NCBI GenBank assembly: GCA_963712745.1
Contig: CAVQJC010000017.1
Span: forward strand, 224,001 to 288,000
DNA: 64,000 bases
Source: an uncultured Chloroflexia bacterium
GTDB taxonomy: Bacteria > Chloroflexota > Limnocylindria > Limnocylindrales > CSP1-4
Reading direction: 5' to 3'
The position numbers were made by a program, and so were the translations under genes. Below the pieces are notes generated by a model that saw only the letters and a list, made by a program, of their open reading frames with translations, ran no database searches and was not told where the DNA came from. This document shows, one piece after another, positions 49,678 to 61,595 of the stretch (the stretch's first letter is position 1; every line of letters starts with the position of its first letter).

Positions 49678-51003
49678 CTAGGCGCCCTGCGGCCCCTCGA
49701 GGCGGCGTCCGCGCACCCAGGCCGCACGGACCATGCCGGGGCGCTCGCGGAAGATGAGCCGGCCGGCGACCTCCTCGAGGTCCCGACATGGCTCGCCGTT
49801 GGGCGGTCGGCCGAGGTCCGGGTCGACCGCGATGAGATCGGCCTCCTTGCCCGTCTCCAGGCTGCCGATGACGCGGTCCAGGCCGAGCGCCTCCGCGCCC
49901 CCGAGCGTGCCCAGCCGGAGCCACTCGAGCGGATCGGGCACCGCAGCACCATCGCCCACCACGGTCGCGCGCGAGTTGTGCTGGAAGAAGCCGAGGCGCA
50001 TCTGGGTGACGACCGAGAGCTCGGGTGCGCCGGCCACATCGGTCCCCAGGCCGATGCGCAGGCCTGCCTCGAGGTATCGACCGATGGGCATCACGCCGCT
50101 GCGGATGAACATGTTGCTCACCGGGCAGTGGGCGATGGCCGAGTCGGTCTCCACCATGCGCCCGAGCTCACGCTCGGAGAGGTGGATCGAATGGGCGAAG
50201 AGCGCCTTCCGACCGAGCCCGCCCGCGCGGTCGTAGACATCGAGGTAGTCGGCCGCCTCGGGGAAGTGCTCAGCCACCGTGGCCATCTCGGCCACGTCCT
50301 CGGAGAGGTGGGTCTGCCAGGTGGCACCGTAGTGCTCGGCCAGCGACGCCGACTCGCGCAGCATGTCAGGGGTGCAGGCGACGGCGAAGCGCGGCGTGAA
50401 CGCGTACCGAAGTCGTCCGTCCGCGGCGCCGTGCCAGCGTTCGCAGAGCTCGCCGGAAGCGCGGATGGCGTTCTCGATGATGTCACCGGGCGGGGTGAGC
50501 TCGTCGTAGGTGACGCGGTCCATGAGCACGTTGCCGATGACCGCGCGGATACCGTGCTCGTCTGCGGCGCGGAAGCAGGCCTCGGTCGAATCGGGCCAGA
50601 TCGCGGCGTAGCCAGAGAAGGTGGTGGTGCCGGCCGCGGCCATGGCGCGATAGACCTGTGGGGCGAGAGCCTCGGCCGTGGGCACGTCGAAGGCGCGTTC
50701 GAGTGGGAAGACGTAGCGCTCCAGCCAGGACAGCAGGTCCATGCCGGCTCCCAGGCCGGCGGCGGGCACCTGCGGGATGTGGACGTGGGTGTCGACCAGG
50801 CCCGGCATGACCACCAGCGGCCGCAGGTCGATGGCCGATCCGGCGGCCTGCGGGGCATCCGCCGCGGCGCGGACCGAGCGGATACGCCCGGCCTCGTCCA
50901 CTTCGATGATTCCGTCGGGCTGCCAAAGTGTGTCGCCCTCGGGGAGCGGGCTGAGCAGGCGGGCCCGCAACGTGAACGGCGGCTCTTGCGGGATGGTCGT
51001 CAT
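49678..51003 (-). CDS. guaD: Guanine deaminase (amidohydrolase family)
   Basis: PGLVDTHVHIPQ, LLSWLERYVFP.E, TPRFA, QTHLSE, AHCPVSN, GTDVAG. Confidence 0.9.
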   Translation of the reverse strand: MTTIPQEPPFTLRARLLSPLPEGDTLWQPDGIIEVDEAGRIRSVRAAADAPQAAGSAIDLRPLVVMPGLVDTHVHIPQVPAAGLGAGMDLLSWLERYVFPLERAFDVPTAEALAPQVYRAMAAAGTTTFSGYAAIWPDSTEACFRAADEHGIRAVIGNVLMDRVTYDELTPPGDIIENAIRASGELCERWHGAADGRLRYAFTPRFAVACTPDMLRESASLAEHYGATWQTHLSEDVAEMATVAEHFPEAADYLDVYDRAGGLGRKALFAHSIHLSERELGRMVETDSAIAHCPVSNMFIRSGVMPIGRYLEAGLRIGLGTDVAGAPELSVVTQMRLGFFQHNSRATVVGDGAAVPDPLEWLRLGTLGGAEALGLDRVIGSLETGKEADLIAVDPDLGRPPNGEPCRDLEEVAGRLIFRERPGMVRAAWVRGRRLEGPQGA

Positions 51004-51410
51004 CGCGGGATCTCCACCGGCACGACCCGCAGTTCGTCGATGCCACTGAAGTCGCCCGGGTTGCACGTGTACAGCGGAAGTCCGTTGGCGATCGCGACAG
51101 CAGCGATCATCGCGTCGAAGGGGCGCGCCGAGCTCTTCCGACCTCTGCGCCGAAGAGATGCGGCGACACGCCCGAATGCACGCGCAGCTCCGACGTCGAA
51201 GGGGATAGCCTCGAAGTCGGCTTCGGCGCTCTGTACCTGCGCCTGTCTCGCGGCCTGTTCCTCACCATCTGCCACGAGCGGTCCGACGCTGAGCTCCGCA
51301 AGCGTCACGGTCGAGATGCGAGGCCGCCGCGGAAGCAGTGTGGGGTCGGGCAACCGACCAGACAGGATCAGCGTGCTCGTGTCCAGCAGCCCTTCGTCGT
51401 GGCGGGTCAC
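51000..51410 (-). CDS. vapC: VapC-family PIN-domain toxin
   Basis: LLDTS, VTLAEL, FDAMIAAVA, LYTCN..DF. Confidence 0.92.
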   Translation of the reverse strand: MTRHDEGLLDTSTLILSGRLPDPTLLPRRPRISTVTLAELSVGPLVADGEEQAARQAQVQSAEADFEAIPFDVGAARAFGRVAASLRRRGRKSSARPFDAMIAAVAIANGLPLYTCNPGDFSGIDELRVVPVEIPR

Positions 51411-51643
51411 AGTGACTGGTCGATGATCTTGTCGATGTCACGTCGCAGGGACTCCGGGTCCACCGAGGGCAGGTTCCTCCGGCGTTCCAGCAGTGCTTCC
51501 ACCGACAGTGTTCTTGTGGGCAGAGGGGAGAGACGGGCGACTGGCATGCCATCCCGCGTGATCGTCAGCACCTCTCCCGCGATTACTCGCTCGATGACCT
51601 CGCCACCCTTGTTCCGTAGATCCCTGATCGTCACGTCAGCCAT
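51407..51643 (-). CDS. Phd/YefM-family antitoxin
   Basis: VTIRDLRNKGGEVIERV.AGE...ITRDG.PVARL.P; GTGA overlap with the toxin. Confidence 0.92.
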   Translation of the reverse strand: MADVTIRDLRNKGGEVIERVIAGEVLTITRDGMPVARLSPLPTRTLSVEALLERRRNLPSVDPESLRRDIDKIIDQSL

Positions 51644-51650
51644 GTCTCAC

Positions 51651-51669
51651 ATCGTATCACCGGTGATAC
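51651..51669 (-). promoter_or_regulatory. TA operator palindrome overlapping a leaderless -10 box
   Basis: Perfect GTATCACCGGTGATAC (51654-51669); TACGAT-N7-ATG on the minus strand. Confidence 0.7.
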
Positions 51670-51690
51670 AGTCCCCGCGTTCCGCGGGTC

Positions 51691-52776
51691 TCAGCCGGCT
51701 TCGTCGTCGAGCTCTGCCAGGGTGCGTGTTCGCAGGTCGATGATGAGCCCCAGCTGCAACACCGTGATGATGGTGGAACCCAGAGCGGTGACCTGCGCGG
51801 CGTAGAAGGTCACCAGCCCTCCGGCCACGAGGTTCGTGAGCACAGCAGCGACGGCCAGGTTCAGGCCCGGCTGCGTCTTGCCCCGCCACAGGGCCACGAG
51901 CGCCGCTCCGGCCCCGAGGCCCACGACCACGTTGATGCCTAGGACCAACAGGATCCAGACCGGTTCGGTCGGTAGCTCCATCCGTCCGGCATCCCGGGCC
52001 ACGAGCAATGCCTCTTCCAGGTCGAGCTGTGTGCTCGCCAGCAGGAGCAGGGCAGCCGCCACCGCCCCCAGGAAGGCCCAGATCAGCGACAGGACCACCA
52101 GCCACCGCTCCAGGCGTGTCGGCAGGAGCCGCTCGAGCAGCCGGTGACCTTCGCCCCTGGCGATCCAGCCTTCGGCTGTCAGGCGGGCGTCCATGGCCGG
52201 GGATTCCAGGGCCGCCAGCAGCATCTCTGCCAGCCGATCGGCCTCCGCGGAAGGCTCGGCGGTCCGTACCTGGGCTGCGAGCATCTGGTCGATCACCCTC
52301 CGGCGATCCTGCGCGGTCAGGTTGCCATCGAGGCCGTCGGCGAGCGCCTCGATGACCGCACCGCTCGCGTCATAGCCGTCGACCCCGCGCCGGCGTACCA
52401 GCACCCAGAGCAGGACGAGCAGCAGGATGCTGCCGTAGATGATGGGGGCGGCCGGGGCGTAGAAGTAGTCGTTCGAGGTGGTCATGAACTTGCCGATCTC
52501 GTCGATGAACAGGCCCGCGCCCAGTCCGGCCAGGAGGGCTGAGATCTGAAGAGTGCGTTGCCCCGAATAGAGGAGCGGCAGCAGGGCGGCGATGAACAGC
52601 GCCAGGCCGCCCCAGAGTGCGTGGGCGATGTGGAGTTCGCCGCCTCCCACGGTGGGATAGCCGGCCAGGTCCAGGTACCAGCGCACGCCTGCGACCGTCA
52701 CCGCGAAGGCGGCGATGGTCAGGACCAGGTAGCTGGTAGCACGGTCCCGCCGTGTTCCCAGGTATCGGCTGCGCAC
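51691..52776 (-). CDS. Hypothetical multi-pass membrane protein
   Basis: LHIAHALWGG, GAGLFIDEIGKF, NDYFY; about 8 TM segments. Confidence 0.8.
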   Translation of the reverse strand: MRSRYLGTRRDRATSYLVLTIAAFAVTVAGVRWYLDLAGYPTVGGGELHIAHALWGGLALFIAALLPLLYSGQRTLQISALLAGLGAGLFIDEIGKFMTTSNDYFYAPAAPIIYGSILLLVLLWVLVRRRGVDGYDASGAVIEALADGLDGNLTAQDRRRVIDQMLAAQVRTAEPSAEADRLAEMLLAALESPAMDARLTAEGWIARGEGHRLLERLLPTRLERWLVVLSLIWAFLGAVAAALLLLASTQLDLEEALLVARDAGRMELPTEPVWILLVLGINVVVGLGAGAALVALWRGKTQPGLNLAVAAVLTNLVAGGLVTFYAAQVTALGSTIITVLQLGLIIDLRTRTLAELDDEAG

Positions 52777-52877
52777 CGTCGGAGCCTACCGCAGCGAAAG
52801 CGGAGTCGTTTCGGGCTGGACGCGGCTCATACCCTGACGAGCGCCACCAGACGGCGGCGCCACGAGGCAGAGACTCC

Positions 52878-53000
52878 ATGGACACCGAGCTCGTCAGCAG
52901 GGCCCACAGGGGACCAGGCGGCATTCGCCGAGATCGCGTCGGCCACGTACGGGCGGCTGCACTCGCTCGCGTTCGGCATCCTGCGCGACCGGGTCGGCCT
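52878..53000 (+). pseudogene. Truncated ECF sigma factor N-terminal remnant
   Basis: MDTELVSRAHRG / DQAAFAEIASATYGRLHSLAFGILRDR across a frameshift; similar to the N-termini at 55507 and 58006. Confidence 0.7.
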
Positions 53001-53381
53001 TCACGGCCGGCCCGGTCGCGGTGTCCGGCCCGAGCCTTTCGCGAATCGAGATCGCCGCTGAGCGGGACAACTCGACCCTGGCAGGCTACGGGAGGACTCG
53101 TCTGTCCCGCCAGACGAGAACTCGCGCCACCCTTTCCCGCTCCCCGGTAACAACCAGGCATCTGCGGGGGCGGTCTGGCCGAACTGTCCCGTTGAGCGAG
53201 AGGCAAACCCTCCGACGAAGGTCTTGCAGCCTCTCGCTCGGACGAAGGCCACCTGCGACACGCCCGATGAATTCGGGAACCCTTGCGCACTCCGGCTCCC
53301 CAGACCAGATGAGAGCGGCCACACCGGTCGCCTCGCCGCGGCAACGGAAGACCAACGGGGGGGAACACGGAGGCACTACGC

Positions 53382-54095
53382 GTGAGGAACCGATACACCC
53401 TGAGCCTGGCCCTGGCGGCTTCACTCGCCGTCGTCGGGGCACCGGCGACGCTCGCCCAGGATGGGACCGATGTGGGCAACCCTGACCAGCTCGCGTACAA
53501 GGTCATCGAGCGCAGCAAGGACATCGCTGGGCGCTCCTACCAGGACTGGATCAACGACTACGGCACGTGGTTCATCTGGGATCGCTCCCCCGACAACTTG
53601 CCGCCCGATGCCATGCAGGATTGCGATGGCGGCCAGCCGGGCGGCGACGTCTTCTTCATCCCGAGCACGCAGATCGGACAGACCACCGAGTACGGATGCG
53701 ATGTCCGCTCGGACCAGCACCTGCTGCTGTGGCTCGGCGGCACGCTCGGTTGGGTCGATGACGGCCAGACCCAGGACGAGCGGCTGGCTGACCTCTATAC
53801 CGGATTCAGCCACTGGCACGGCTTCGAGTTCACCCTCGATGGCGAAACGCTGCCGGCCGGTGGGCACCTCGTGTTCGAGCCCGACTTCTATACCGTCGAG
53901 CTGGCCGATGACAACCTCTTCGGGCTGCCGCCCGGGCCGCGTGACGTGTTCATGGTCGGGGCTTTCGTGATGCTCGAGCCGCTCGACGCCGGCCAGCACA
54001 CGGTGACGGCCAAGGGCAGCCTCTTCGATCCCGAGCTTGGCACGGCCGATACCGTCGCCATCGCCACGCTGAACGTGACCGACCCTGGCGAATAG
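53382..54095 (+). CDS. Secreted hypothetical protein
   Basis: Signal peptide (ATLA-QD); W..W, C...Q.GG.VFF, LEPL.AG.H; GGAGG RBS. Confidence 0.8.
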   Translation: MRNRYTLSLALAASLAVVGAPATLAQDGTDVGNPDQLAYKVIERSKDIAGRSYQDWINDYGTWFIWDRSPDNLPPDAMQDCDGGQPGGDVFFIPSTQIGQTTEYGCDVRSDQHLLLWLGGTLGWVDDGQTQDERLADLYTGFSHWHGFEFTLDGETLPAGGHLVFEPDFYTVELADDNLFGLPPGPRDVFMVGAFVMLEPLDAGQHTVTAKGSLFDPELGTADTVAIATLNVTDPGE

Positions 54096-54114
54096 CGCCC
54101 GAGCCGGCGCCTCC

Positions 54115-54151
54115 ACGCTCCTGCCCCTGGGAACCACTGGGGCAGGAGCGT
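54115..54151 (+). terminator. Hairpin after the secreted-protein gene, with GGAACC in its loop
   Basis: 13-bp stem ACGCTCCTGCCCC/GGGGCAGGAGCGT. Confidence 0.65.
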
Positions 54152-54224
54152 TGTCGTGTCTGCTGCAGTCGCGTAAGGTGCGCGCTTCGGCTGCGTGACT
54201 CGGCACGCGTACAAGGGAGGGTCC

Positions 54225-55412
54225 ATGCGAATCACTCGAATCTCGGTGGCGGCCGGTCTGGCCCTGGACCTGGTCGTCGCCGGTGTCGTCGCCGTCGCGG
54301 GTCAGGGCCCCGCCACGTTCACGGTGGCACGGGACGGGAGCGGCGACCACGAGACGATCGGGGCCGCGATCGCGGCTGCTGCCGCAGGGGACACCATCCT
54401 CATATCCCCCGGCGAGTACGTCGAGAACCTCTATATCGACAAGCCCGTCACCCTCTCGGGCGACGGGCCGCGTGAAGACATCGTGCTCAGGCCGAACGAG
54501 CGCGACCCGCAGATCCTCGACATCTACGGCGAAGGCCTGGACGAGGACTACTTGCCGGTGACGGTCTACGTCGACGGTGTCGACGTGACGCTCGAGCATC
54601 TGGTCGTCAAGGACGAGCAGGGCGAGACCGTGTCGCTGGTGCTCATGGGCGGCTCCCCGACCGTGCGCGACATCGTCGCCGGCTACGTTGGTGTCCGTGG
54701 GCGTGCCTCAGCCGTGCTGGAGGGCTCCGACATCCGACGCGTCAGCCTCTGGGGACCCAACATGACGACCGTGCGCAACAACACCGTCCGCAACATGATC
54801 TGGGCCAGCACGGGCGCCACCGGCGTGGTCGAAGGCAATCTCGTGCTCGACCGGCCGATCATGGCTGACCGAGGTGCCAGCCTGGAGATCGTGGGCAACA
54901 CCATCAGGCCCCTGGACGACGAGCTGGGCATCAACATCATCGATGGCGAGACCACGGCCGTGGTCACGGGCAATGATGTCCAGGGCGGCTGGCTCGGCAT
55001 CCACCTCGAGGTCGCCAAGCAAGGGCGGATCGAAGGCAACAGCCTCAGTGGGCACGAGGTCGGCATGCTGGTCAAGCAGAGCCGGACCGTTGTGCGCGAC
55101 AACACCGTCTCCGACATCAGCGAGACCGGGATCGTCATCGTCGGTGATGGCATCCAGGCCGAGGACAACATGGTGACCGGCGGACGCATCGGCATCCACG
55201 TGGAGAAACCGGACACCTATCCCCCGGAGCTTCTCCTCGATGAGCCCACCCGCATCACCGGCAACTCGATGACCGGCGCCTCGCATTTCGGGATGGTGGT
55301 GGAGGGCTCCGCGGAGATCTCCGGCAACACCATCTGTGCCCGGCGGGAGCCCTTGCGGGTCCTCGGCGGCGATCCCCGGATCGGCTCGAACGACATCTGC
55401 GACGTGGACTGA
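54225..55412 (+). CDS. Exported right-handed parallel beta-helix (pectin lyase-like/NosD/PbH1) protein
   Basis: VARDGSGDHETI.AAI..A..GDTI.I.PGEY.ENL.IDK cap; repeated I.GN.I/V..GI turns; GGGAGG RBS. Confidence 0.85.
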   Translation: MRITRISVAAGLALDLVVAGVVAVAGQGPATFTVARDGSGDHETIGAAIAAAAAGDTILISPGEYVENLYIDKPVTLSGDGPREDIVLRPNERDPQILDIYGEGLDEDYLPVTVYVDGVDVTLEHLVVKDEQGETVSLVLMGGSPTVRDIVAGYVGVRGRASAVLEGSDIRRVSLWGPNMTTVRNNTVRNMIWASTGATGVVEGNLVLDRPIMADRGASLEIVGNTIRPLDDELGINIIDGETTAVVTGNDVQGGWLGIHLEVAKQGRIEGNSLSGHEVGMLVKQSRTVVRDNTVSDISETGIVIVGDGIQAEDNMVTGGRIGIHVEKPDTYPPELLLDEPTRITGNSMTGASHFGMVVEGSAEISGNTICARREPLRVLGGDPRIGSNDICDVD

Positions 55413-55506
55413 GGGCCCGCTGTCCAAGATGGAACCCCTGATCGCCGAGCATCCCCAGACTGGGTAGGCGCGGCCGACCACGACCGGGCCAGCACCGGAG
55501 GAACCG

Positions 55507-56055
55507 ATGCAGCGAGAGCTTGTCGAGCAGGCGATCAAGGGGGACCACGACGCGTTCAGTGAGCTCGTCCGGCTGTCGAGCCGGAAGCTGTACGCCGTGG
55601 CCACGTTGATCCTGCGTGACAAGACGCGAGCAGAGGACGCCACGCAGGAGGCACTGGTGGCCGCCTGGCGCGACCTCTCGGGGTTGCGCGACCCGGACCG
55701 TTTCGAGGCCTGGCTCCACCGCGTGCTCGTGCGCGAGTGCTACCGCATGGCCAAGCGCGAGCGCCGGCGCATCGAGGTCGAGGGCCAGGTCCGCGCCCTG
55801 ACCGAGACCGACGACCCCAGCCGCCAGCAGGCTGCTCGCGACGAGCTCGAGCGTGGGTTCGCCCGCCTGCCGGTCGACCAGCGGACCGTGCTCGTACTGC
55901 ACCACTACGTGGGCTACTCCTTTCCAGAGATCGCTGAGACGCTGGGTATCCCGGTGGGTACCGCCAAGTCGCGCGTGCACCGGGCCACCAGTGCCATGCG
56001 TGCCGCGCTCACCGCCGATGCCCGCACTCCGACCCTGGGAGGGTCTTCGGCATGA
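55507..56055 (+). CDS. ECF sigma-70 factor
   Basis: AEDATQEA, LRDPDRFEAWL, LP.DQRTVLVL, EIAETLGIPVGTAKSR. Confidence 0.95.
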   Translation: MQRELVEQAIKGDHDAFSELVRLSSRKLYAVATLILRDKTRAEDATQEALVAAWRDLSGLRDPDRFEAWLHRVLVRECYRMAKRERRRIEVEGQVRALTETDDPSRQQAARDELERGFARLPVDQRTVLVLHHYVGYSFPEIAETLGIPVGTAKSRVHRATSAMRAALTADARTPTLGGSSA

Positions 56056-57314
56056 ATGACCGCGGCAAGGCTCCCTGGGACGAGCCTGTGAACGAGCTCG
56101 ACACCGATCAGCTGCTCACCGAGTGGTTCGAGGAAGAGGCGCCCCTGCGTGAGCCGGCCCTGCTCGCGCCCAACGTCATCGCTCGCACCGCGCTCACGCG
56201 TCGACGCTCCCGGTGGTTGGTACGCGATTGGTGGCGCGATCTCCTTCGCGGCGTTCGCTGGCCGTCGCTGGTGCCCGCGCTGGCCGCGGGCGTGGTCGCG
56301 ATCGTGGCTCTTGTCTTCGCGGTCGTGACGTGGCTGCCCGAGCGCGCCTCGCAGCCCGTCCTCCCCGACTACGTGCCGGCCGATGCGCTCATCGTGTCGA
56401 GCAACGACGCATCGAAGAAGTCGACGATCGCGGAGGCTATCGCCCAGGCGCAGCCCGGCGACACGGTGGCCATCCTGCCGGGCGAGTACGAGGAGAACCT
56501 CCTCGTCGACAAGGACATCACGCTTCTCGGCGCTGGGGCGGCGGAGGAGATCGTGGTGCGTCCGGCCCAGCCGGACGAGCCCGTCATCCGTATCGACGGC
56601 GGGGATGCCACGCTCACCGGCTTCACTGTCACGGGGCCGGGCGGTGGCGTTGAGGTCGTGGCCAGCCAGGCGGTCATCGACCAGATGGTCTTCCGGGATG
56701 CCGGTCAGCGGTCGTGGAGGTTCACCGGCTCGGGTTGGGAGGAGTCCGACAGTGCCCGACCGTCGATCCTGGTGGAGCTCTTCGCCGAGGCCACCATCAC
56801 CAACAACCTCCTCGACGGCGGGGGCGACATCGAGGTGCAGCGTTCGTCGACAGCGCTGATCGAGCAGAACGAACTCAGCAACGGCCCGTCCATCGCCCTC
56901 ATGGACGCGACCGGCGAGACCGTGGTGCGCGGGAACACGATCACCGCATCTGGCGTCTTCTCGATCGAGTCCGCGTCACCGACGGACCTGCTCATCGAGG
57001 GCAACGTCATCCGTCAGCGCGATCCGGGCATCGCGATCTTGGCCTTCGACCTGGACGGCACCATCCGCGGCAACACCATCGAGGGCGCCAACGTGGGCAT
57101 CCAGATCGTGGATCGCACCACCGCGACGATCGTTGACAACACCATCGACGCGGTGGGTGTGGCCTTCGAGATCCACGAGGGCGTGGAGCCCACGATCAGC
57201 GGCAACGATCTCTGCGGGCAGAACGCGATCATCGCGCTCGTCGGGAGTGCCACCGCGCCGGACGTCTCGGACAACACGCTCTGCAAGGGCGTGCCGGTGG
57301 TCTACGAGCGGTAG
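56052..57314 (+). CDS. Putative anti-sigma factor: short cytoplasmic domain, one TM, extracellular beta-helix
   Basis: ATGA-coupled to sigma; TM ALAAGVVAIVALVFAVV; TIAEAI..A.PGDTV.I.PGEYEENL; PbH1-type repeats. Confidence 0.8.
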   Translation: MNDRGKAPWDEPVNELDTDQLLTEWFEEEAPLREPALLAPNVIARTALTRRRSRWLVRDWWRDLLRGVRWPSLVPALAAGVVAIVALVFAVVTWLPERASQPVLPDYVPADALIVSSNDASKKSTIAEAIAQAQPGDTVAILPGEYEENLLVDKDITLLGAGAAEEIVVRPAQPDEPVIRIDGGDATLTGFTVTGPGGGVEVVASQAVIDQMVFRDAGQRSWRFTGSGWEESDSARPSILVELFAEATITNNLLDGGGDIEVQRSSTALIEQNELSNGPSIALMDATGETVVRGNTITASGVFSIESASPTDLLIEGNVIRQRDPGIAILAFDLDGTIRGNTIEGANVGIQIVDRTTATIVDNTIDAVGVAFEIHEGVEPTISGNDLCGQNAIIALVGSATAPDVSDNTLCKGVPVVYER

Positions 57315-57399
57315 CGATCCCTGGCCCCGGGCCACCCGGGCCATCACCGACTCGAGCTCTGCGGCGGCCTGCGCTTCGTGTGCGACGTCCTCCCGCTGC

Positions 57400-57655
57400 C
57401 GGGCGCCTGGCTGTGCGTCCGCTGCACGAGTCCGACGATGCGGGCGCCTGGCTGTGCGTCCGCTGCACGAGTCCGACGATGCGGGCGCCTGGCTGTGCGT
57501 CCGCTGCACGAGTCCGACGATGCGGGCGCCTGGCTGTGCATCCGCTGCACGAGTCCGACGAAGCGGGCGCCTGGCTGTGCATCCGCTGCACGAGTCCGAC
57601 GAAGCGGGCGCCTGGCTGTGCATCCGCTGCACGAGTCCGACGAAGCGGGCGCCTG
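57400..57655. repeat. 41-bp tandem array (6 copies plus partial; 3 of type A then 3 of type B)
   Basis: CGGGCGCCTGGCTGTGC(G/A)TCCGCTGCACGAGTCCGACGA(T/A)G at 57400, 57441, 57482, 57523, 57564, 57605. Confidence 0.95.
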
Positions 57656-57793
57656 CGCAAGTCCATCGGGCCGCGTTGGCACCCTTCCTTTGCGCCCGGT
57701 GCCCGGCGGTGACGTTCGTTGTCACCCCGTGAGAGGCTTCGGCAGATACCGGAACCGGCATACGCCGAAGTGGCGCACCGAGGTCGAACTGGT

Positions 57794-57927
57794 GCACCCG
57801 GTGCAGACACCCGGCACCCGGTGCAGACACCCGGTGGCCGATGGCAGACACCCGGTGGCCGATGGCAGACACCCGGTGGCCGATGGCAGACACCCGGTGG
57901 CCGATGGCAGACACCCACTGGCCGATC
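57794..57927. repeat. 21-bp tandem array (4 copies plus 1 variant), preceded by a 20-bp duplication
   Basis: GCAGACACCCGGTGGCCGATG at 57823, 57844, 57865, 57886, variant at 57907. Confidence 0.95.
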
Positions 57928-58005
57928 GATGGAACCTTTCGCACCGCGCGGCGACGCAATAGGGTATGAGCGCGGCCAAGTGTGTCGCGCCGAAGCGGTG
58001 GCCAC

Positions 58006-58575
58006 ATGACACGAGAGCTCGTCCGGCGAGCGATCGAGGGCGATCACGACGCGTTTTCCAGCCTGGTGGACGCGTCGATCGATCGCCTGTATGCCGTGGC
58101 CACACTCATCCTGCGTGACTCGGACCGTGCCCAGGACGCGGTGCAGGAGGCGCTCATGTCCGCCTGGAAGGACGTGCGCGCGCTCCGCGATCCCGACGCG
58201 TGGGATGCCTGGCTCCATCGCATCACGGTGTGGGCCTGCTACAAGGCAGCCAAGAAGGAGCGTCGACGCAAGACGGTCGAGCTGAAGGTCGTTCCCGACC
58301 CCGAGCGCACGACCGCTCCTGACTCCGCGGCTACGCTGGCCAACCGCGACCTGGTCGAGCGGCAGTTGAACGACCTGCCCATCGAGCATCGCGCGGTCAT
58401 CGTCCTGCGCTTCTACCTCGACCTGCCTCTCGACGAGGTGGGCGACATCCTCGACATCCCTGTCGGGACCGTGAAGTCCCGCTTGCATCGGGCACTGGCC
58501 TCACTCCGCGAGTCGATGGCCGAGCCCGCTGCCGGCATTCCCCCGGTCGGCCTCCTGAAGGACGGCACAGCATGA
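58006..58575 (+). CDS. ECF sigma-70 factor (paralog of 55507)
   Basis: AQDAVQEA, LRDPDAWDAWL, LPIEHRAVIVLR, LDIPVGTVKSRLHRA. Confidence 0.95.
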   Translation: MTRELVRRAIEGDHDAFSSLVDASIDRLYAVATLILRDSDRAQDAVQEALMSAWKDVRALRDPDAWDAWLHRITVWACYKAAKKERRRKTVELKVVPDPERTTAPDSAATLANRDLVERQLNDLPIEHRAVIVLRFYLDLPLDEVGDILDIPVGTVKSRLHRALASLRESMAEPAAGIPPVGLLKDGTA

Positions 58576-60008
58576 ACGACCATGTCCGCTTCGAGCGGCT
58601 GTTCGCAGATGGCATGCATGAGCTCGCGCCCAAGCGTGCGCCCGACCGGCTCCGGACGAAGGTCAAGGACGAGACCGGCGACGTGCGTCCGCGCGCGCGT
58701 TGGCTCGCGCTCATGAAGGAGCCCCCCATGCGTACCAACTCACACCTCGCTGTCGGGTCACCGACTGCTCGAGTGGCGGCCATCGTCACCGCGACCCTGC
58801 TTGCGGCGATGATGATCGTGGGCGCCGGCATCGCCGGTGCTCAGCTCTTGGCCGCCGACGGCCCGATCATCGTCGACCAGTCTGGTGGAGGCGCGACCAC
58901 CACCATCACCGAGGCCATCGCCATGGCCGGGGACGGCGACGAGATCCTGGTCCGTCCCGGCACCTACACCGAATCATTCGTCATCGACAACGACATCGCC
59001 GTGCGTGGCGATGGACCTGTGGAAGACATCGTCGTCATGGCGCCGGAGGGCGGACCGATCGCAGCCACGTCCGGCGAGACTGCGGGCGAGCCGTATGCGG
59101 TGTTGTTGTCCGAGTCCGCGGGCCGCCTGTCGGGACTCACGTTCCGCGGTCAGCCCTCGATGGTCATCGCCAGTGGCGGCTCGCCCACGGTCACGGGCAA
59201 CATCATGGACGGCGTCGGCTGGGCGTTCGATGGCAGCAACCTCTCATCCGGCGGAAGTTCGATCGTGGCCACTGCCGGGACGACCGCGAACATCACCGGC
59301 AACACGGTTCTGAACGGTGGGCCGATCGCGGCCTTCGAGGGTGCCAGTCCGATGATCGAGGGCAATCGTCTCCAAGGCGGTCCGCACATCTTCCTGAGGG
59401 GCGCCGCCTCCGACACCATCGTGCGGGGCAATGAGATCCTCGGCACGCATTCGCGGGGGATCGCCGTGTCCAGTCCCGGGCCCATCATCGTCGAGGGCAA
59501 CCGCATCTCGGACTACGGGCAGGCCGGCATCCGCGTCGGGAGGAACGCGGGGGCGGAGGGCTACGAGACCCAGGTGAGGAACAACACCATCGAGGGGACA
59601 GGAACAGGGGTCGCCGTCACGCAGGGCGGAGCCCCGACCATCGAGGGCAACACCCTGTCGGGCAACGACCTCGGCATCGAGCTGAGGGGCGGGACCGCCA
59701 CCGTTGCCGACAACACGTTCAATGACAACATGGTCGCGCTCAGCTTGGGGCCCGGCAGCCACTCGGTCGATGGAAACAACATCTTCGCTGGCACCACCGG
59801 CATCATGGCCACGGGTGGCGAAGCGCAGCTCACCCGCAACGTCGTCGTGGGCGCGTCCGGTCGTGGCATCGCCATCGGCGGCACGTCGAGCCCGATGCTC
59901 GCCGGCAACCGCTCTTGCGGCAACGGCGAGAACCTCTGGGTGAGCGAGGACTCCACCCCAAGGATCGACGAGTCCAACGAGATCTGCGAGGACGCGGTGG
60001 CCGAGTAG
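58572..60008 (+). CDS. Putative anti-sigma factor with TM and extracellular beta-helix
   Basis: ATGA-coupled; APDRL...RPRARW cytoplasmic part; TM; VDQSGGG..TTI.EAI..A.DGD.I.VRPGTY; many I.GN repeats. Confidence 0.8.
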   Translation: MNDHVRFERLFADGMHELAPKRAPDRLRTKVKDETGDVRPRARWLALMKEPPMRTNSHLAVGSPTARVAAIVTATLLAAMMIVGAGIAGAQLLAADGPIIVDQSGGGATTTITEAIAMAGDGDEILVRPGTYTESFVIDNDIAVRGDGPVEDIVVMAPEGGPIAATSGETAGEPYAVLLSESAGRLSGLTFRGQPSMVIASGGSPTVTGNIMDGVGWAFDGSNLSSGGSSIVATAGTTANITGNTVLNGGPIAAFEGASPMIEGNRLQGGPHIFLRGAASDTIVRGNEILGTHSRGIAVSSPGPIIVEGNRISDYGQAGIRVGRNAGAEGYETQVRNNTIEGTGTGVAVTQGGAPTIEGNTLSGNDLGIELRGGTATVADNTFNDNMVALSLGPGSHSVDGNNIFAGTTGIMATGGEAQLTRNVVVGASGRGIAIGGTSSPMLAGNRSCGNGENLWVSEDSTPRIDESNEICEDAVAE

Positions 60009-60030
60009 CCCGGGCGGACTCGGCAGCTCA

Positions 60031-60061
60031 GCCCGGGTCGGTCGATATGGCCGGCCCGGGT
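60031..60061. terminator. Hairpin between convergent genes
   Basis: GCCCGGGTCGGTCG-ATA-TGGCCGGCCCGGGT (includes G-U pairs). Confidence 0.55.
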
Positions 60062-60076
60062 CGGCGACTATCCAGC

Positions 60077-60857
60077 CTATCCCCGCGGAGCGTCGGGGTC
60101 GATGAGGCGGGTGACGAAGAACTCGTAGCCATAGGCGTCGGGGTAGTCACGGCGCAACTGTTGCTCGCCCTCGGACTCGGCGATGAACCGTAGTGCGGCC
60201 GGGTCGAGCCGGTACTTCTCGCGCATCCTCTCGAGGTTTGCCGCCAGCGGCGTGTAGTAGTCGGTCCACCAGGACTCGTCGGGCAGCCTGAAATGGCCGA
60301 GGACCTCGTAGCCGCAGTCGCGGATGCGCGCGATGTTGCCGGATACGTCCGTGATACCCGGGTACTCGCTCTCGAAGAACGCGCGCACCTCGGCGGGCAC
60401 GTCGGGCACCAGCCAGCAGATTCTCAGACACGACGAGGCAGGCCTGGGGCCGCAGGAACTCCTGCCACTGAGTGAATGCCGCGGTGATGCCCATGATGTA
60501 GGCCGCGCCCTCGGACCAGATCAGGTCGAACGAGTGCTTGCCGAAGGGCAGGTCTCTCATGTCCCCGCGCATCACCTGGATGCGATCCCGCATACCCGCC
60601 GCGGCCGCGCGCTCGCGGAGCTCATCGAGGAACTGCTCGAAGAGGTCGACCGCGGTGATGGTCCCACCCGTCGCGGCCGCCAGTGCCACCGTCTGCATGC
60701 CCGGCCCACAGCCGACATCGAGCACGTCGGGCTGCATCGGCAGCTCCGTGCACATCTCGAGAGCGCGGAGCGTGGAGGCGTCGTCCCCGGGGCCCTGTCG
60801 CGGAAGGCCGCCATGGACATCGAGAAGGATCTCCATCAGCCAGTCGTTGTCGGTCAT
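60077..60857 (-). CDS. Class I SAM-dependent methyltransferase; frameshift near 60420
   Basis: LPRQGPG, VLDVGCGPG, FDLIWSEGA, WWTDYY.PL, YGYEFFV. Confidence 0.9.
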
Positions 60858-60932
60858 AGCCCGGAGAGGGTAGCGGCCGGGCCCGCCTGAGGGATAGGCG
60901 ATTCGGCCCCGATGTCGGGCGCCCTTGAGCCC

Positions 60933-61595
60933 CTACTCGAGACCCCAGAAGGGGCCGGACAGTCCGACTCTGCGGAAGTACTCGAGCGCACGTACCGGCT
61001 CCCGGCGCTCGTAGCCGGCCTCGAGCCGGCCCTCGTACCAGCGCGAGGCGAGCCGCCACAGGGTAGCCAGGTCCATGACGTAGCCGGGCTCGACCCCGGA
61101 TGAATCGGTCCAGCGCTGGACGCACTCGACACTGCAGAAGAGCCGCTGGTTGCCACAGGTGTGGACGACGTCGTCCCAGCACTTGGCCATGGGCACCAGG
61201 AAGTGGGCAACCTCATCGCCTACTGGTGGGGCCTCGCGGTTGACGACCCAGGCGAGTGGCTTGCCGCAGCCGGGGCACTGGGTAGCCACCAGCACCTCAG
61301 GGTCATCCGGGCAGAGCTGCGGGATGGCGAACGAATCCCAGGCACAACCACCCCACCACAACGTGTCGCGGCCCATCACGCTGAAGCCGAGGGGGACCGA
61401 GGCGAACGGGTGGGCCATCACGATCTCGCCGTCGCGCAGGACCACGTGCCGCTCGAGCGCAAGAGTGCGTAGTGACTCCCGGACCGCGTCGGCGCTGAGG
61501 CCCAGCTCTACGGCCATCTCCTCGGCCGAAGCCGGTCGGCCGTCCTCGACATAGCCTCGATACACCGCCAGGCGGACGGCTTCGTCGTGGTTCAT
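60933..61595 (-). CDS. merB: Alkylmercury lyase (MerB)-like protein
   Basis: N-terminal wHTH, HPF, CAWD (cf. MerB CxxD), CPGCG, HTC...LFCS. Confidence 0.7.
   Translation of the reverse strand: MNHDEAVRLAVYRGYVEDGRPASAEEMAVELGLSADAVRESLRTLALERHVVLRDGEIVMAHPFASVPLGFSVMGRDTLWWGGCAWDSFAIPQLCPDDPEVLVATQCPGCGKPLAWVVNREAPPVGDEVAHFLVPMAKCWDDVVHTCGNQRLFCSVECVQRWTDSSGVEPGYVMDLATLWRLASRWYEGRLEAGYERREPVRALEYFRRVGLSGPFWGLE

What the first reader, a model, noticed from the sequence alone, without database searches (positions are those of the whole stretch)
52878..60008. Tandem array of ECF sigma / anti-sigma pairs whose extracellular part is a pectin-lyase-like beta-helix
Seen: two paralogous ECF sigmas (55507, 58006), each ATGA-coupled to a protein with a short cytoplasmic N-domain, one TM and a long parallel beta-helix. 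Also present are a third, stand-alone exported beta-helix paralog (54225) and a decayed third sigma (52878). All three helices begin with a pectinesterase/NosD-like cap (TI..AI..A..GD.I...PG.Y) and end in GN..C-x~20-N..C, probably a disulfide cap. Established: beta-helices commonly bind polysaccharides, and carbohydrate-sensing anti-sigmas exist (sigI/RsgI of cellulolytic clostridia). Inference: an expanding cell-surface glycan-sensing ECF system in which the soluble paralog acts as an output, decoy or co-receptor. I do not know of a characterised ECF group with this sensor.
Basis: partly seen in the sequence, partly recalled or inferred. Interest (0 to 1): 0.8.

Follow-up and report, generated by a model that had tools for sequence, protein, structure and literature searches.

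The report
Sigma/anti-sigma pairs with beta-helix sensors
Two neighbouring gene pairs in an uncultured soil-type Chloroflexota bacterium each encode a stress-type sigma factor and a membrane protein that probably holds it in check and carries a sugar-enzyme-like beta-helix outside the cell; the switch is a familiar kind, but this sensor has not been studied.

Summary
Window 55507-60008 carries two ECF sigma genes. Each overlaps by 4 nt a gene for a single-pass membrane protein with a short cytoplasmic N-domain and an outside right-handed beta-helix. A stand-alone exported helix paralog lies at 54225-55412. The "decayed sigma" at 52878 is real, but only a deletion stump of about 38 codons. The pairing is conserved: all 30 related loci that carry the N-module have an ECF sigma directly upstream, and none of the 48 helix-only loci does. 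A complex model supports sigma binding to the N-domain (0.79 against 0.39 for the best control). The N-module family is large (1196 clusters at 50% identity) and modular, with beta-helix the commonest ectodomain, followed by beta-propellers. Sigma and helix phylogenies disagree, so the ectodomain behaves as an exchangeable cassette. Each sigma has its own promoter motif. The sigmaA-type motif also precedes the unknown secreted gene 53382-54095, not the stand-alone helix. Glycan sensing rests on fold likeness alone. The sigmas fall below the cutoff of every named NCBIfam family. The parts of the 2021 ECF classification that I searched mention no such sensor. Verdict: a new variant of a known kind, of moderate interest.

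The parts
52795..52991 (+). Stump of a third sigma gene (sigmaX): promoter, leader and about 38 codons from ATG 52878, with a frameshift. The rest of the gene and its partner have been deleted.
   Evidence: 84% identity over 200 positions to L005:1267-1463 (E 8e-55). The intact ortholog is L005:1348-1926, followed by a 439-aa helix partner at L005:1923-3242. Protein-level match is 12 of 27 in one frame and 7 of 12 in another.
53276..53305 (+). SigmaA-type promoter motif (GGAAC-N18-CCCCAGA C-type) upstream of the secreted gene, followed by a sigma-like leader.
   Evidence: One of only 2 matches in the 64-kb window, the other lying before sigmaA. Expected by chance 0.17; 1 of 100 shuffles reached 2. 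Aligned with the sigma leaders.
53382..54095 (+). Secreted protein of unknown function (237 aa, signal peptide, 2 Cys). Candidate sigmaA target.
   Evidence: No Pfam or NCBIfam match. 21 proteins in the hit list including the window's own, none carrying a Pfam family. AF2 pLDDT 84.9, mostly beta. No PDB fold match with E <= 0.001.
54225..55412 (+). Stand-alone exported or anchored beta-helix paralog (395 aa) that lacks the sigma-binding N-module.
   Evidence: Pfam Beta_helix 51 bits and NosD 44.6 bits. N-terminal hydrophobic stretch; Cys at 381 and 402 of the 405-aa ORF that starts at 54195. Orthologs at 44% identity lie in the same position in L006 and L010.
55431..55460 (+). SigmaA promoter motif.
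   Evidence: Conserved in L006A and L010A.
55507..56055 (+). ECF sigma factor A (182 aa).
   Evidence: Pfam r2 and r4_2; TIGR02937 above cutoff. Orthologs at 87-88% identity in L006 and L010.
56052..57314 (+). Anti-sigma-like partner A (420 aa): N-domain, one TM (~72-93), beta-helix, C388/C411.
   Evidence: 4-nt overlap with sigmaA. Ortholog in L006 at 54% identity by tblastn.
57400..57655 (.). Tandem array, 41 bp x 6.2 copies, in the spacer between partner A and sigmaB.
   Evidence: TRF 99% matches. Six copies, found nowhere else in the window.
57803..57927 (.). Tandem array, 21 bp x about 6 copies, ending directly at the sigmaB -35 element.
57931..57960 (+). SigmaB promoter motif (GGAAC-N19-CGCAAT).
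   Evidence: The single match in the window. Conserved in 5 sigmaB-orthologous loci: L002, L005B, L006B, L009, L010B.
57968..57991 (+). Conserved leader stem-loop between the promoter and the sigmaB start codon.
   Evidence: RNAalifold on 35 leaders gives 6 pairs, 4 of them with compensatory changes. No Rfam match.
58006..58575 (+). ECF sigma factor B (189 aa).
   Evidence: Orthologs at 76-93% identity in L002, L005, L006 and L009.
58572..60008 (+). Anti-sigma-like partner B (478 aa): two-helix N-domain (5-18, 25-36), conserved juxtamembrane motif (~39-67), TM helix (64-94), beta-helix (99-457), C449/C472.
   Evidence: AF2 pLDDT 86.1. Complex model with sigmaB. 250 homologs. Alignment A1.

Best explanation
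The region holds two cognate ECF sigma / membrane anti-sigma pairs of a lineage-specific, much-duplicated family of Chloroflexota (Limnocylindria-type MAGs).

Proposed mechanism:
1. Each sigma is translated together with its partner.
2. The partner's short two-helix cytoplasmic N-domain clamps sigma regions 2 and 4 and keeps the sigma at the membrane (predicted).
3. The partner crosses the membrane once and displays a disulfide-capped right-handed beta-helix on the outside as the input domain (topology shown by sequence features).
4. An outside event at the helix frees the sigma. The most likely event is binding of a polysaccharide-like ligand or damage to the ectodomain, followed by proteolysis or a conformational change (inferred; no step of release was tested).
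5. The freed sigma transcribes from its own pair-specific GGAAC-type promoter. For sigmaA this includes the promoter in front of the secreted protein gene 53382-54095 (inferred from motifs).

The beta-helix ectodomains are exchanged between paralogous pairs, so input specificity evolves separately from the sigma/N-domain/promoter module.
For: Identity of the parts:
- Pfam and NCBIfam matches identify the sigmas and the helices.

Coupling:
- Both window pairs overlap by 4 nt.
- 26 of the 34 rows in the locus script show the same 4-nt overlap. L006A and L010A also do once the starts are used.

Pairing:
- 30 of 78 related loci have a sigma hit, and these are exactly the loci that carry the N-module. 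All 30 come from Chloroflexota-type MAGs.
- None of the other 48 loci has a sigma hit. Nearly all of them match the helix alone, and they are mostly from other phyla.

Topology:
- K/R is richer before the TM than after it in 30 of 30 aligned proteins, and all 30 have the C-terminal Cys pair.

Binding:
- Complex model of sigmaB with partner B residues 1-66: scores 0.79, 0.80 and 0.79, best of 3 controls 0.39. That mark was reached by 116 of 157 solved complexes and 2 of 215 mismatched pairs.
- The runs agree in at least 89% of contacts, and the partner pLDDT is at least 69.
- The interface covers sigma residues 10-59 and 110-171 and partner residues 3-49.
- ECF sigma/anti-sigma complexes are solved (for example 5wuq and 4cxf, listed), so this pass may partly reflect likeness to known structures.

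Modularity:
- The N-module profile finds 1196 cluster representatives at E <= 0.001.
- Of the 91 new hits of at least 300 aa that I scanned, 58 carry beta-helix-type domains, 11 PD40, 4 Kelch, 2 PQQ_2, 1 SAF, 1 a garbled sigma fusion and 14 nothing.

Promoters:
- Conserved GGAAC-type motifs with pair-specific -10 elements lie about 75 nt upstream of the sigma starts.

Fold:
- The helix resembles NosD by sequence profile (E 2.3e-9) and GH87 glucanase, RbmB, AlgE/AlgG and PL6 lyases by structure.

Cassette exchange:
- SigmaB orthologs at 76-93% identity have helices only 33-43% identical to the window's. L001a and L003, whose sigmas are 52-54% identical, have helices 57-58% identical.
- The trees disagree. 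AU tests reject congruence, with p 0.00037 and 0.0029.
Against: - No experiment exists, and binding is a model only.
- Only the sigmaB pair was folded. Partner A has a divergent N-domain (23% identical, lacking the juxtamembrane motif) and was not tested.
- No Pfam anti-sigma family matches either N-domain at E <= 0.01.
- The ligand is unknown. The invariant helix residues are almost all G, N, C and P, that is structural, which says nothing positive about glycan binding.
- NosD, the nearest sequence relative with a structure, is not a glycan sensor (my recollection).
- No protease or other release machinery was looked for.
- The AU groups were named after the identities had been seen, which weakens those p-values.
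- Many relatives come from error-prone MAG contigs with frameshifts.
Confidence: 0.75

Rival explanations
1. The beta-helix proteins are membrane-anchored polysaccharide-modifying enzymes (lyase, epimerase or hydrolase) that are merely co-expressed with a sigma factor. On this reading the N-terminal stretch is an anchor or leader, not an anti-sigma domain.
For: All the best structural matches are enzymes: GH87 glucanase, RbmB lyase, AlgG/AlgE epimerases and PL6 lyases. A GGPH-type turn is common in the partner B subfamily (consensus), and I recall a histidine-containing motif in AlgG-type epimerases. The stand-alone paralog shows that the helix can work without the N-module.
Against: The N-module is conserved across unrelated ectodomains (PD40, Kelch, PQQ_2, SAF) and always sits behind a sigma gene. 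The complex model passes its controls. No acidic, basic or histidine residue is invariant on the helix body across the 30 aligned proteins. Pectinesterase matches cover only the N-cap and fall below cutoff (22.3 against 27 bits). An enzymatic ectodomain would not in any case exclude an anti-sigma role.
Confidence: 0.12
2. The pair is an envelope-integrity switch rather than a ligand sensor. The exposed helix is a bait that is cut or unfolded by outside proteases, lytic agents or phage enzymes, and its destruction starts proteolysis of the anti-sigma.
For: Fast, discordant evolution and swapping of ectodomains, with the sigma and N-domain conserved, fits an arms-race surface. The juxtamembrane motif between the sigma-binding helices and the TM is nearly invariant and could be a processing or degron site (inference). 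The stand-alone secreted paralog could act as a decoy.
Against: There is no direct evidence. Beta-helices are typically protease-resistant (general knowledge). The same N-module is also joined to propellers, which are typical binding domains.
Confidence: 0.1
3. The array is partly decaying, and partner A or partner B no longer controls its sigma.
For: A third pair has clearly been deleted. Near-perfect tandem repeats have inflated the spacer before sigmaB to about 690 nt, against about 100 nt in L006.
Against: All four genes are intact ORFs with conserved motifs, promoters and 4-nt coupling. Orthologous arrays exist in L006 and L010.
Confidence: 0.03

Closest known systems
ECF sigma factors with single-pass anti-sigma factors encoded at +1, such as the non-two-component subgroups of ECF39 in Casas-Pastor et al. 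2021 (PMC7826278; supplement part 12 read)
   Same: Sigma2+sigma4 architecture. The best NCBIfam model is TIGR02983 SigE-fam_strep. A one-TM protein sits at +1 and carries a variable outside domain, including WD40/PD40-type propellers in relatives. The -35 element is of the AAC type and the setup looks autoregulatory.
   Different: TIGR02983 scores are below cutoff (116.6 and 124.9 against 141.55). ECF39 is described as Actinobacteria only, whereas these are Chloroflexota. The -10 elements differ: C-N-C followed by ATA/GTA or CCCCAGAC here, CGTC in ECF39. A beta-helix sensor is not mentioned in the searched text.
Class II anti-sigma domains (CnrY, NepR), as defined in PMC8103513 (passages read)
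   Same: A short cytoplasmic sigma-binding element of two helices, not four, which is predicted to touch both sigma2 and sigma4.
   Different: No sequence relation was shown. CnrY, as I recall it, has no large sensor ectodomain.
SigI/RsgI polysaccharide-sensing pairs of cellulolytic clostridia
   Same: Multiple paralogous sigma/anti-sigma pairs in one genome, each with a single-pass anti-sigma carrying a carbohydrate-related outside module, and modular exchange of the outside module.
   Different: The sigma is ECF-type, not SigI-type. No Pfam family other than Beta_helix, NosD and DUF1565 was listed for either partner at E <= 0.01. The sensor is a beta-helix, not the CBM, PA14 or GH modules that I recall for RsgI proteins. 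Ligand binding has not been shown.
NosD / CASH-type right-handed beta-helix proteins (PDB 7o0y; Pfam PF05048)
   Same: The closest solved sequence relative of the ectodomain (E 2.3e-9). Pfam NosD matches are above cutoff. The same N-cap motif is present.
   Different: NCBIfam NosD_copper_fam scores are 44.8-66.8 against a cutoff of 300. None of the three neighbours I scanned (51691-52776, 60147-60857, 60933-61595) is nos-like. Here the helix is tethered to an anti-sigma module.

Membership tests
ECF (group 4) sigma-70 factors | Only sigma regions 2 and 4, about 180-200 aa, and a match to the ECF superfamily model | tested here: met
   Pfam Sigma70_r2 and r4_2; lengths 182 and 189 aa; TIGR02937 scores 84.4 and 73.1 bits against a cutoff of 42.9
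ECF39 / SigE-fam_strep | Score above the TIGR02983 cutoff | tested here: not met
   116.6 and 124.9 bits against 141.55
ECF39 / SigE-fam_strep | Assignment by the ECF-group HMMs of the 2021 classification | not testable with these tools
   No ECF-group HMM library is available. The text describes ECF39 as all Actinobacteria, with CAACC/CGTC promoters.
Membrane anti-sigma factor (generic) | Encoded next to and co-translated with its sigma | tested here: met
   4-nt overlap in both window pairs and in 26 of 34 locus rows. A sigma lies upstream in all 30 N-module loci.
Membrane anti-sigma factor (generic) | Cytoplasmic domain binds the cognate sigma | tested here: inconclusive
   Model only: score 0.79 against a best control of 0.39, runs agreeing in at least 89% of contacts, partner pLDDT at least 69. 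The sigmaA pair was not folded.
Membrane anti-sigma factor (generic) | N-in / C-out single-pass topology | tested here: met
   One hydrophobic stretch; K/R bias in 30 of 30; an extracytoplasmic-type Cys pair in 30 of 30. This is a prediction, not an experiment.
Class I anti-sigma domain (zinc-binding ZAS / RskA-like) | Four-helix domain with a match to a known anti-sigma Pfam family | tested here: not met
   No family other than Beta_helix, NosD and DUF1565 was listed at E <= 0.01. Only two helices precede the TM in the AF2 model.
Class II anti-sigma domain (CnrY/NepR-like) | Short helical hairpin that embraces the outer surface of sigma2 and sigma4 | tested here: inconclusive
   Two helices, and predicted contacts to both sigma domains. 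The geometry was not compared with 4cxf.
SigI/RsgI | SigI-type sigma and an RsgI N-terminal domain | tested here: not met
   The sigmas match ECF models, and no RsgI-type family was listed for the partners.
NosD (nitrous oxide reductase maturation) | Score above the TIGR04247 cutoff | tested here: not met
   44.8-66.8 bits against 300
Pectin methylesterase | Full-length PF01095 match above cutoff | tested here: not met
   Listed only for the stand-alone helix, at 22.3 bits against 27, covering only cap residues 33-87

The most novel reading that the evidence does not exclude
Soil Chloroflexota of the Limnocylindria type carry a large, combinatorial surface-sensing repertoire. A minimal two-helix anti-sigma module with a conserved juxtamembrane processing motif forms one unit together with its sigma and a pair-specific promoter. 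This unit is repeatedly re-fitted by recombination with different disulfide-capped beta-helix (or propeller) ectodomains, each of which recognises a different environmental or cell-surface polysaccharide. That would make it an ECF counterpart of the clostridial SigI/RsgI system, with a sensor fold not used in any characterised anti-sigma factor.
Probability: 0.3. Interest if true: 0.65.

Novelty: new variant of a known kind. Interest (0 to 1): 0.5.

Why it matters
ECF sigma/anti-sigma pairs are a main route by which bacteria report outside conditions to the genome, and they are used as orthogonal switches in synthetic biology. For most groups the input signal is unknown.

This family is abundant in a poorly known, uncultured soil lineage. 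It uses an unusually small sigma-binding module, has clear pair-specific promoter motifs, and has a sensor domain that can be produced and tested on glycan arrays.

The discordant histories of sigma and sensor offer a natural experiment on how input and output specificity are recombined. If ligands were found, they would indicate which polymers these organisms monitor in soil.

Tried and rejected
- **Natural sigma/anti-sigma fusions as linkage evidence.** P0067 (629 aa), P0158 and P0189 look fused, but their sequences contain out-of-frame garble at or before the junction. I take them for frameshifted reads and do not count them.
- **Stand-alone helix as an ECF output.** A GGAAC lies upstream of 54225, but it is GGAAA in L006 and L010 and, as I read the sequence, sits in the loop of a hairpin. 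I saw a conserved TTGTCG-N17-TA(A/T)GGT block there, but the sigma-70 consensus scan found no promoter-like site in 52700-60300 and only one terminator-like site, inside partner A. The promoter of that gene stays open.
- **Stand-alone helix as a descendant of the deleted partner of sigmaX.** It is only 28.7% identical to L005:2271-3176, no closer than to the other paralogs.
- **Rfam.** No match at E <= 1 in 52000-60500.
- **Protein atlas on the N-module.** Best score 0.84, below the level the tool regards as meaningful.
- **Fold of the secreted protein 53382-54095.** No PDB match at E <= 0.001; the best was E 3.1e-3 with TM 0.22.
- **Other copies in the window.** tblastn found no further sigma or helix paralog at E <= 1e-3.
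- **Literature searches.**
  - ECF + anti-sigma + beta-helix: 2 papers, neither relevant by title or abstract.
  - "extracytoplasmic function" + anti-sigma + Beta_helix: 0 papers.
  - "anti-sigma factor" + "parallel beta-helix": 3 papers, unrelated by title and abstract.
  - Limnocylindria + "sigma factor": 1 paper (PMC13212565, passages read), which only counts sigma factors.

Full report
**1. What is in the sequence**

The window is high in G+C, 64-72% per 2-kb block. On the + strand between 52.8 and 60.0 kb, the ORF list and the family scans give the following, in order:

- a secreted protein of 237 aa with no family match (53382-54095);
- a 395-aa protein with an N-terminal hydrophobic stretch and Pfam Beta_helix/NosD matches (54225-55412);
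- an ECF sigma of 182 aa (55507-56055, "sigmaA");
- a 420-aa protein (56052-57314, "partner A");
- a 690-nt spacer;
- an ECF sigma of 189 aa (58006-58575, "sigmaB");
- a 478-aa protein (58572-60008, "partner B").

Both sigma stops overlap the next start by 4 nt. The sigmas are 52% identical, and the three helices are 28-30% identical. No further copy exists in the window at E <= 1e-3.

Each partner has a single hydrophobic stretch, after about 70 residues. K/R residues are more frequent before it than after it, and each partner has exactly two cysteines near the C-terminus. In an alignment of 30 family members:

- the K/R bias holds in 30 of 30;
- the C-terminal Cys pair is present in 30 of 30;
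- 23 of 30 have exactly two cysteines.

**2. The "decayed sigma"**

A protein search finds only weak pieces: 12 of 27 residues in one frame and 7 of 12 in another. At the DNA level the case is clear.

- Window 52795-52991 is 84% identical (E 8e-55) to L005:1267-1463. That stretch is the promoter, leader and first ~38 codons of an intact sigma gene, L005:1348-1926. In L005 a 439-aa helix-bearing partner, L005:1923-3242, follows with the usual 4-nt overlap.
- The window copy has a 2-nt gap that shifts the frame.
- Right after position 52991 the window matches, over 25 nt (92%, E 2.4e-4), a stretch that in L005 lies behind that partner gene. This suggests that one deletion of about 1.85 kb removed most of a third pair.

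The flanking VapC/VapB genes are syntenic between the two records (window 51006-51670 against L005:544-1250, 69% identity). The locus therefore both gains and loses cassettes.

**3. Relatives and conservation of the pairing**

Partner B has 250 homologs at E <= 0.001 among the 8000 candidates scored. Most of the 120 listed cover its whole length. Where a source names an organism, it is Chloroflexota or Actinobacteria MAGs.

A scan of one genome per species returned 78 distinct loci. tblastn with the window proteins showed the following:

- 30 of the 78 loci contain an ECF sigma. These are exactly the loci whose match includes the N-terminal module. All 30 come from records titled uncultured Chloroflexia, Chloroflexota, Candidatus Limnocylindrales or Anaerolineaceae.
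- The other 48 loci have no sigma hit. Nearly all of them match the helix alone, at 24-50% identity, and they are mostly Planctomycetota, Bacillota-type, Zixiibacteriota and Gemmatimonadota.

In 26 of the 34 rows of the extraction script, the sigma stop overlaps the partner start by 4 nt. The remaining rows are frameshifted contigs, wrongly inferred starts or one spurious row (L070).

L006 and L010 reproduce the array of stand-alone helix, sigmaA, partner A, sigmaB and partner B.

**4. The N-module is a family of its own**

The first ~95 residues of partner B relatives share two short helices, a nearly invariant juxtamembrane motif (R-P-R-W-L-A-L-I-K-E-P-P-M-R ... G-S-P-T-x-R) and the TM.

A profile of this module, run against 1.84 billion cluster representatives, finds 1196 proteins at E <= 0.001, 374 at E <= 1e-10 and 30 at E <= 1e-30.

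Of the best 150 hits, 14 had already appeared in the list. Of the 136 new ones I dropped 45 that were shorter than 300 aa and scanned the other 91 against Pfam:

| Ectodomain type | Proteins (of 91) |
|---|---|
| Beta-helix-type (5 of them matching the pectinesterase-like cap only) | 58 |
| PD40 | 11 |
| Kelch | 4 |
| PQQ_2 (one also with NHL) | 2 |
| SAF | 1 |
| Garbled sigma fusion | 1 |
| No match | 14 |

The profile was built mostly from helix-linked members, so the share of helices is biased upward. Genome loci show the same modularity: PD40 in L024, and PQQ_2 plus NHL in L027, L029, L042 and L044.

A conserved sigma-adjacent N-module joined to interchangeable outside domains is the pattern expected of an anti-sigma factor.

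**5. Structure and binding**

AlphaFold2 on the 30-row alignment gives partner B a mean pLDDT of 86.1 and a pTM of 0.77. The model has helices at 5-18 and 25-36 (low confidence when modelled alone), a TM helix at 64-94 and a continuous beta-helix at 99-457.

For the ectodomain:

- Foldseek against the PDB returns polysaccharide-active right-handed helices: GH87 alpha-1,3-glucanase 7c7d (E 1.2e-6, TM 0.45), RbmB lyase, AlgE/AlgG epimerases and PL6 lyases. It also returns phage tailspikes and the adhesin PfbA.
- By sequence profile the nearest solved protein is NosD (7o0y, E 2.3e-9), followed by pectinesterase N-caps.
- The invariant positions on the helix are almost all G, N, C and P. I see no family-wide catalytic residue, although a GGPH turn is common within the partner B subfamily.

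For binding, the complex model of sigmaB with partner B residues 1-66 gave these results:

- Scores of 0.79, 0.80 and 0.79, against a best control of 0.39.
- That mark was reached by 116 of 157 solved complexes and 2 of 215 mismatched pairs. The counts hold only roughly here because my own alignments were used.
- The runs agree in at least 89% of contacts, and the partner pLDDT is at least 69.
- Partner residues 3-49 touch sigma residues 10-59 (region 2) and 110-171 (region 4).

Sigma/anti-sigma complexes have been solved, so this pass may partly come from likeness to them. It supports binding but does not show it.

**6. Promoters**

About 75 nt upstream of nearly every sigma start, in the window and in the loci, lies GGAAC(C). 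After about 18-19 nt comes a -10-like element. A GC-rich stem-loop and a GGTGG-type ribosome site follow.

- The -10 element is pair-specific. It is CGCAAT for sigmaB and its five orthologs, and CCCC(A/T)GAC for sigmaA and its two orthologs.
- In the 64-kb window the sigmaB-type pattern occurs once, before sigmaB.
- The sigmaA-type pattern occurs twice: before sigmaA, and at 53276-53305 before the secreted gene 53382-54095. The number expected by chance is 0.17, and 1 of 100 shuffles reached 2.
- The leader behind that second site also resembles the sigma leaders. It is probably a duplicated promoter-leader unit, which would put the secreted gene under sigmaA. This is an inference.
- The stand-alone helix has no conserved ECF-type motif.

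The leader stem-loop has compensatory changes in 4 of its 6 predicted pairs across 35 leaders. It has no Rfam match.

**7. Sensor and sigma have different histories**

Identities to the window's sigmaB pair:

| Locus pair | Sigma | N-module | Helix |
|---|---|---|---|
| L002 | 93% | 73% | 43% |
| L006B | 89.5% | 79% | 34% |
| L005B | 85% | 64% | 42% |
| L009 | 76% | 67% | 33% |
| L001a | 54% | 47% | 58% |
| L003 | 52% | 45% | 57% |

The sigma orthologs thus have well-conserved N-modules but poorly conserved helices. L001a and L003 have distant sigmas and N-modules, yet the most similar helices.

Quick maximum-likelihood trees agree with this:

- In the sigma tree the window's sigmaB groups with L002, L005B, L006B and L009 (SH-aLRT 98).
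- In the helix tree the window's helix groups with L001a and L003 (SH-aLRT 98).

AU tests reject the sigma-type clade on the helix data (p 0.00037) and the helix-type clade on the sigma data (p 0.0029). I named these groups after seeing the identities, which weakens the p-values.

The simplest reading is recombination near the TM-coding segment, which swaps ectodomains between paralogous pairs.

**8. Comparison with what is known**

- Both sigmas pass the ECF superfamily model but no named equivalog. The best model, TIGR02983 (SigE family of Streptomyces), stays below its cutoff.
- In the 2021 ECF classification (PMC7826278), the main text and the held 357,196 characters of the supplement were searched; the supplement file is cut. 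Neither contains NosD, Beta_helix, beta-helix, PF13229 or PF05048.
- Part 12 of the supplement, which I read, describes ECF39 as purely actinobacterial, with one-TM +1 proteins that may carry PASTA or WD40 domains.
- The Chloroflexi-rich groups that my phrase searches returned are ECF247 (two-TM anti-sigma plus bactofilin), ECF271 (soluble zinc-finger anti-sigma), ECF213s1 (one TM, too few members) and subgroups of ECF25. None fits.
- Formal assignment needs the ECF-group HMMs, which I do not have.
- The anti-sigma domain classes are defined in PMC8103513 (passages read). With two helices and no Pfam anti-sigma match, the N-domain looks closest to class II, but this is not settled.
- Four literature searches found no paper on an anti-sigma factor with a beta-helix sensor or on ECF systems of Limnocylindria. 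PMC13212565 (passages read) only counts sigma factors.

**9. What stayed unchecked**

- The flanks of L006 and L010 end about 200-250 nt upstream of the stand-alone helix gene. Whether the secreted gene and its promoter are conserved there rests only on a similar 20-residue C-terminus. It also rests on equal contig lengths for two homolog pairs: P0258 with P0016, and P0259 with P0052.
- A genome-wide paralog count was not possible from a 64-kb window.
- No release mechanism, ligand or disulfide was tested.

**10. Verdict**

The sigma/anti-sigma reading is well supported by conservation and by a controlled model. Glycan sensing remains a fold-based guess.

The system is a new variant of a well-known kind: a large, uncharacterised, lineage-specific ECF family. 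It has a minimal sigma-binding module, pair-specific promoters and an exchangeable beta-helix sensor.

Noticed in passing
window 57400-57655 and 57803-57927: Two near-perfect tandem arrays (41 bp x 6.2 copies at 99% matches; 21 bp x about 6 copies) fill the spacer between partner A and sigmaB. The spacer is about 690 nt here against about 100 nt in L006. The 21-bp array ends directly at the -35 element of the sigmaB promoter. Neither unit occurs elsewhere in the window.
   Followed up: partly
window 57968-57991, and the equivalent place in 34 other leaders (alignment A3): A GC-rich stem-loop lies between the ECF-type promoter and the start codon of nearly every sigma paralog. Four of its 6 predicted pairs show compensatory changes. 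It has no Rfam match. It could be a 5'-terminal stabilising hairpin or a regulatory element.
   Followed up: partly
window 53382-54095: This secreted 237-aa protein belongs to a small family: 21 proteins in the hit list including the window's own, none carrying a Pfam family. Its confident mostly-beta model has no PDB fold match at E <= 0.001. It sits behind a copy of the sigmaA promoter and leader.
   Followed up: partly
window 51671-52794 (gene 51691-52776, minus strand): A 361-aa multi-pass membrane protein gene with no Pfam match lies between VapB and the sigmaX stump. The syntenic record L005 has no corresponding DNA there: its VapB region ends at 1250 and the sigmaX promoter starts at 1267. 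This is a further insertion or deletion at the same hotspot.
   Followed up: no
window 51000-51643 (minus strand): A VapC-like ORF and a short upstream ORF lie next to the array and are syntenic with L005:544-1250 at 69% DNA identity. I named them VapB/VapC-type from the ORF translations alone, without a family scan.
   Followed up: no
proteins P0059 and P0114 (relatives): Some relatives carry two complete beta-helix modules in tandem behind one N-module, each ending in its own Cys-pair cap.
   Followed up: no
window 60147-61595 (minus strand): Downstream neighbours are a SAM-dependent methyltransferase and a protein with an alkylmercury lyase (MerB) domain plus an N-terminal HTH. There is no evident link to the sigma array.
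   Followed up: no
L005, L010, L011, L014, L004, and proteins P0067, P0158, P0189: Many related MAG contigs and metagenome proteins show frameshifts within these genes. These are probably sequencing errors, and they create false sigma/anti-sigma fusions in the protein databases.
   Followed up: yes
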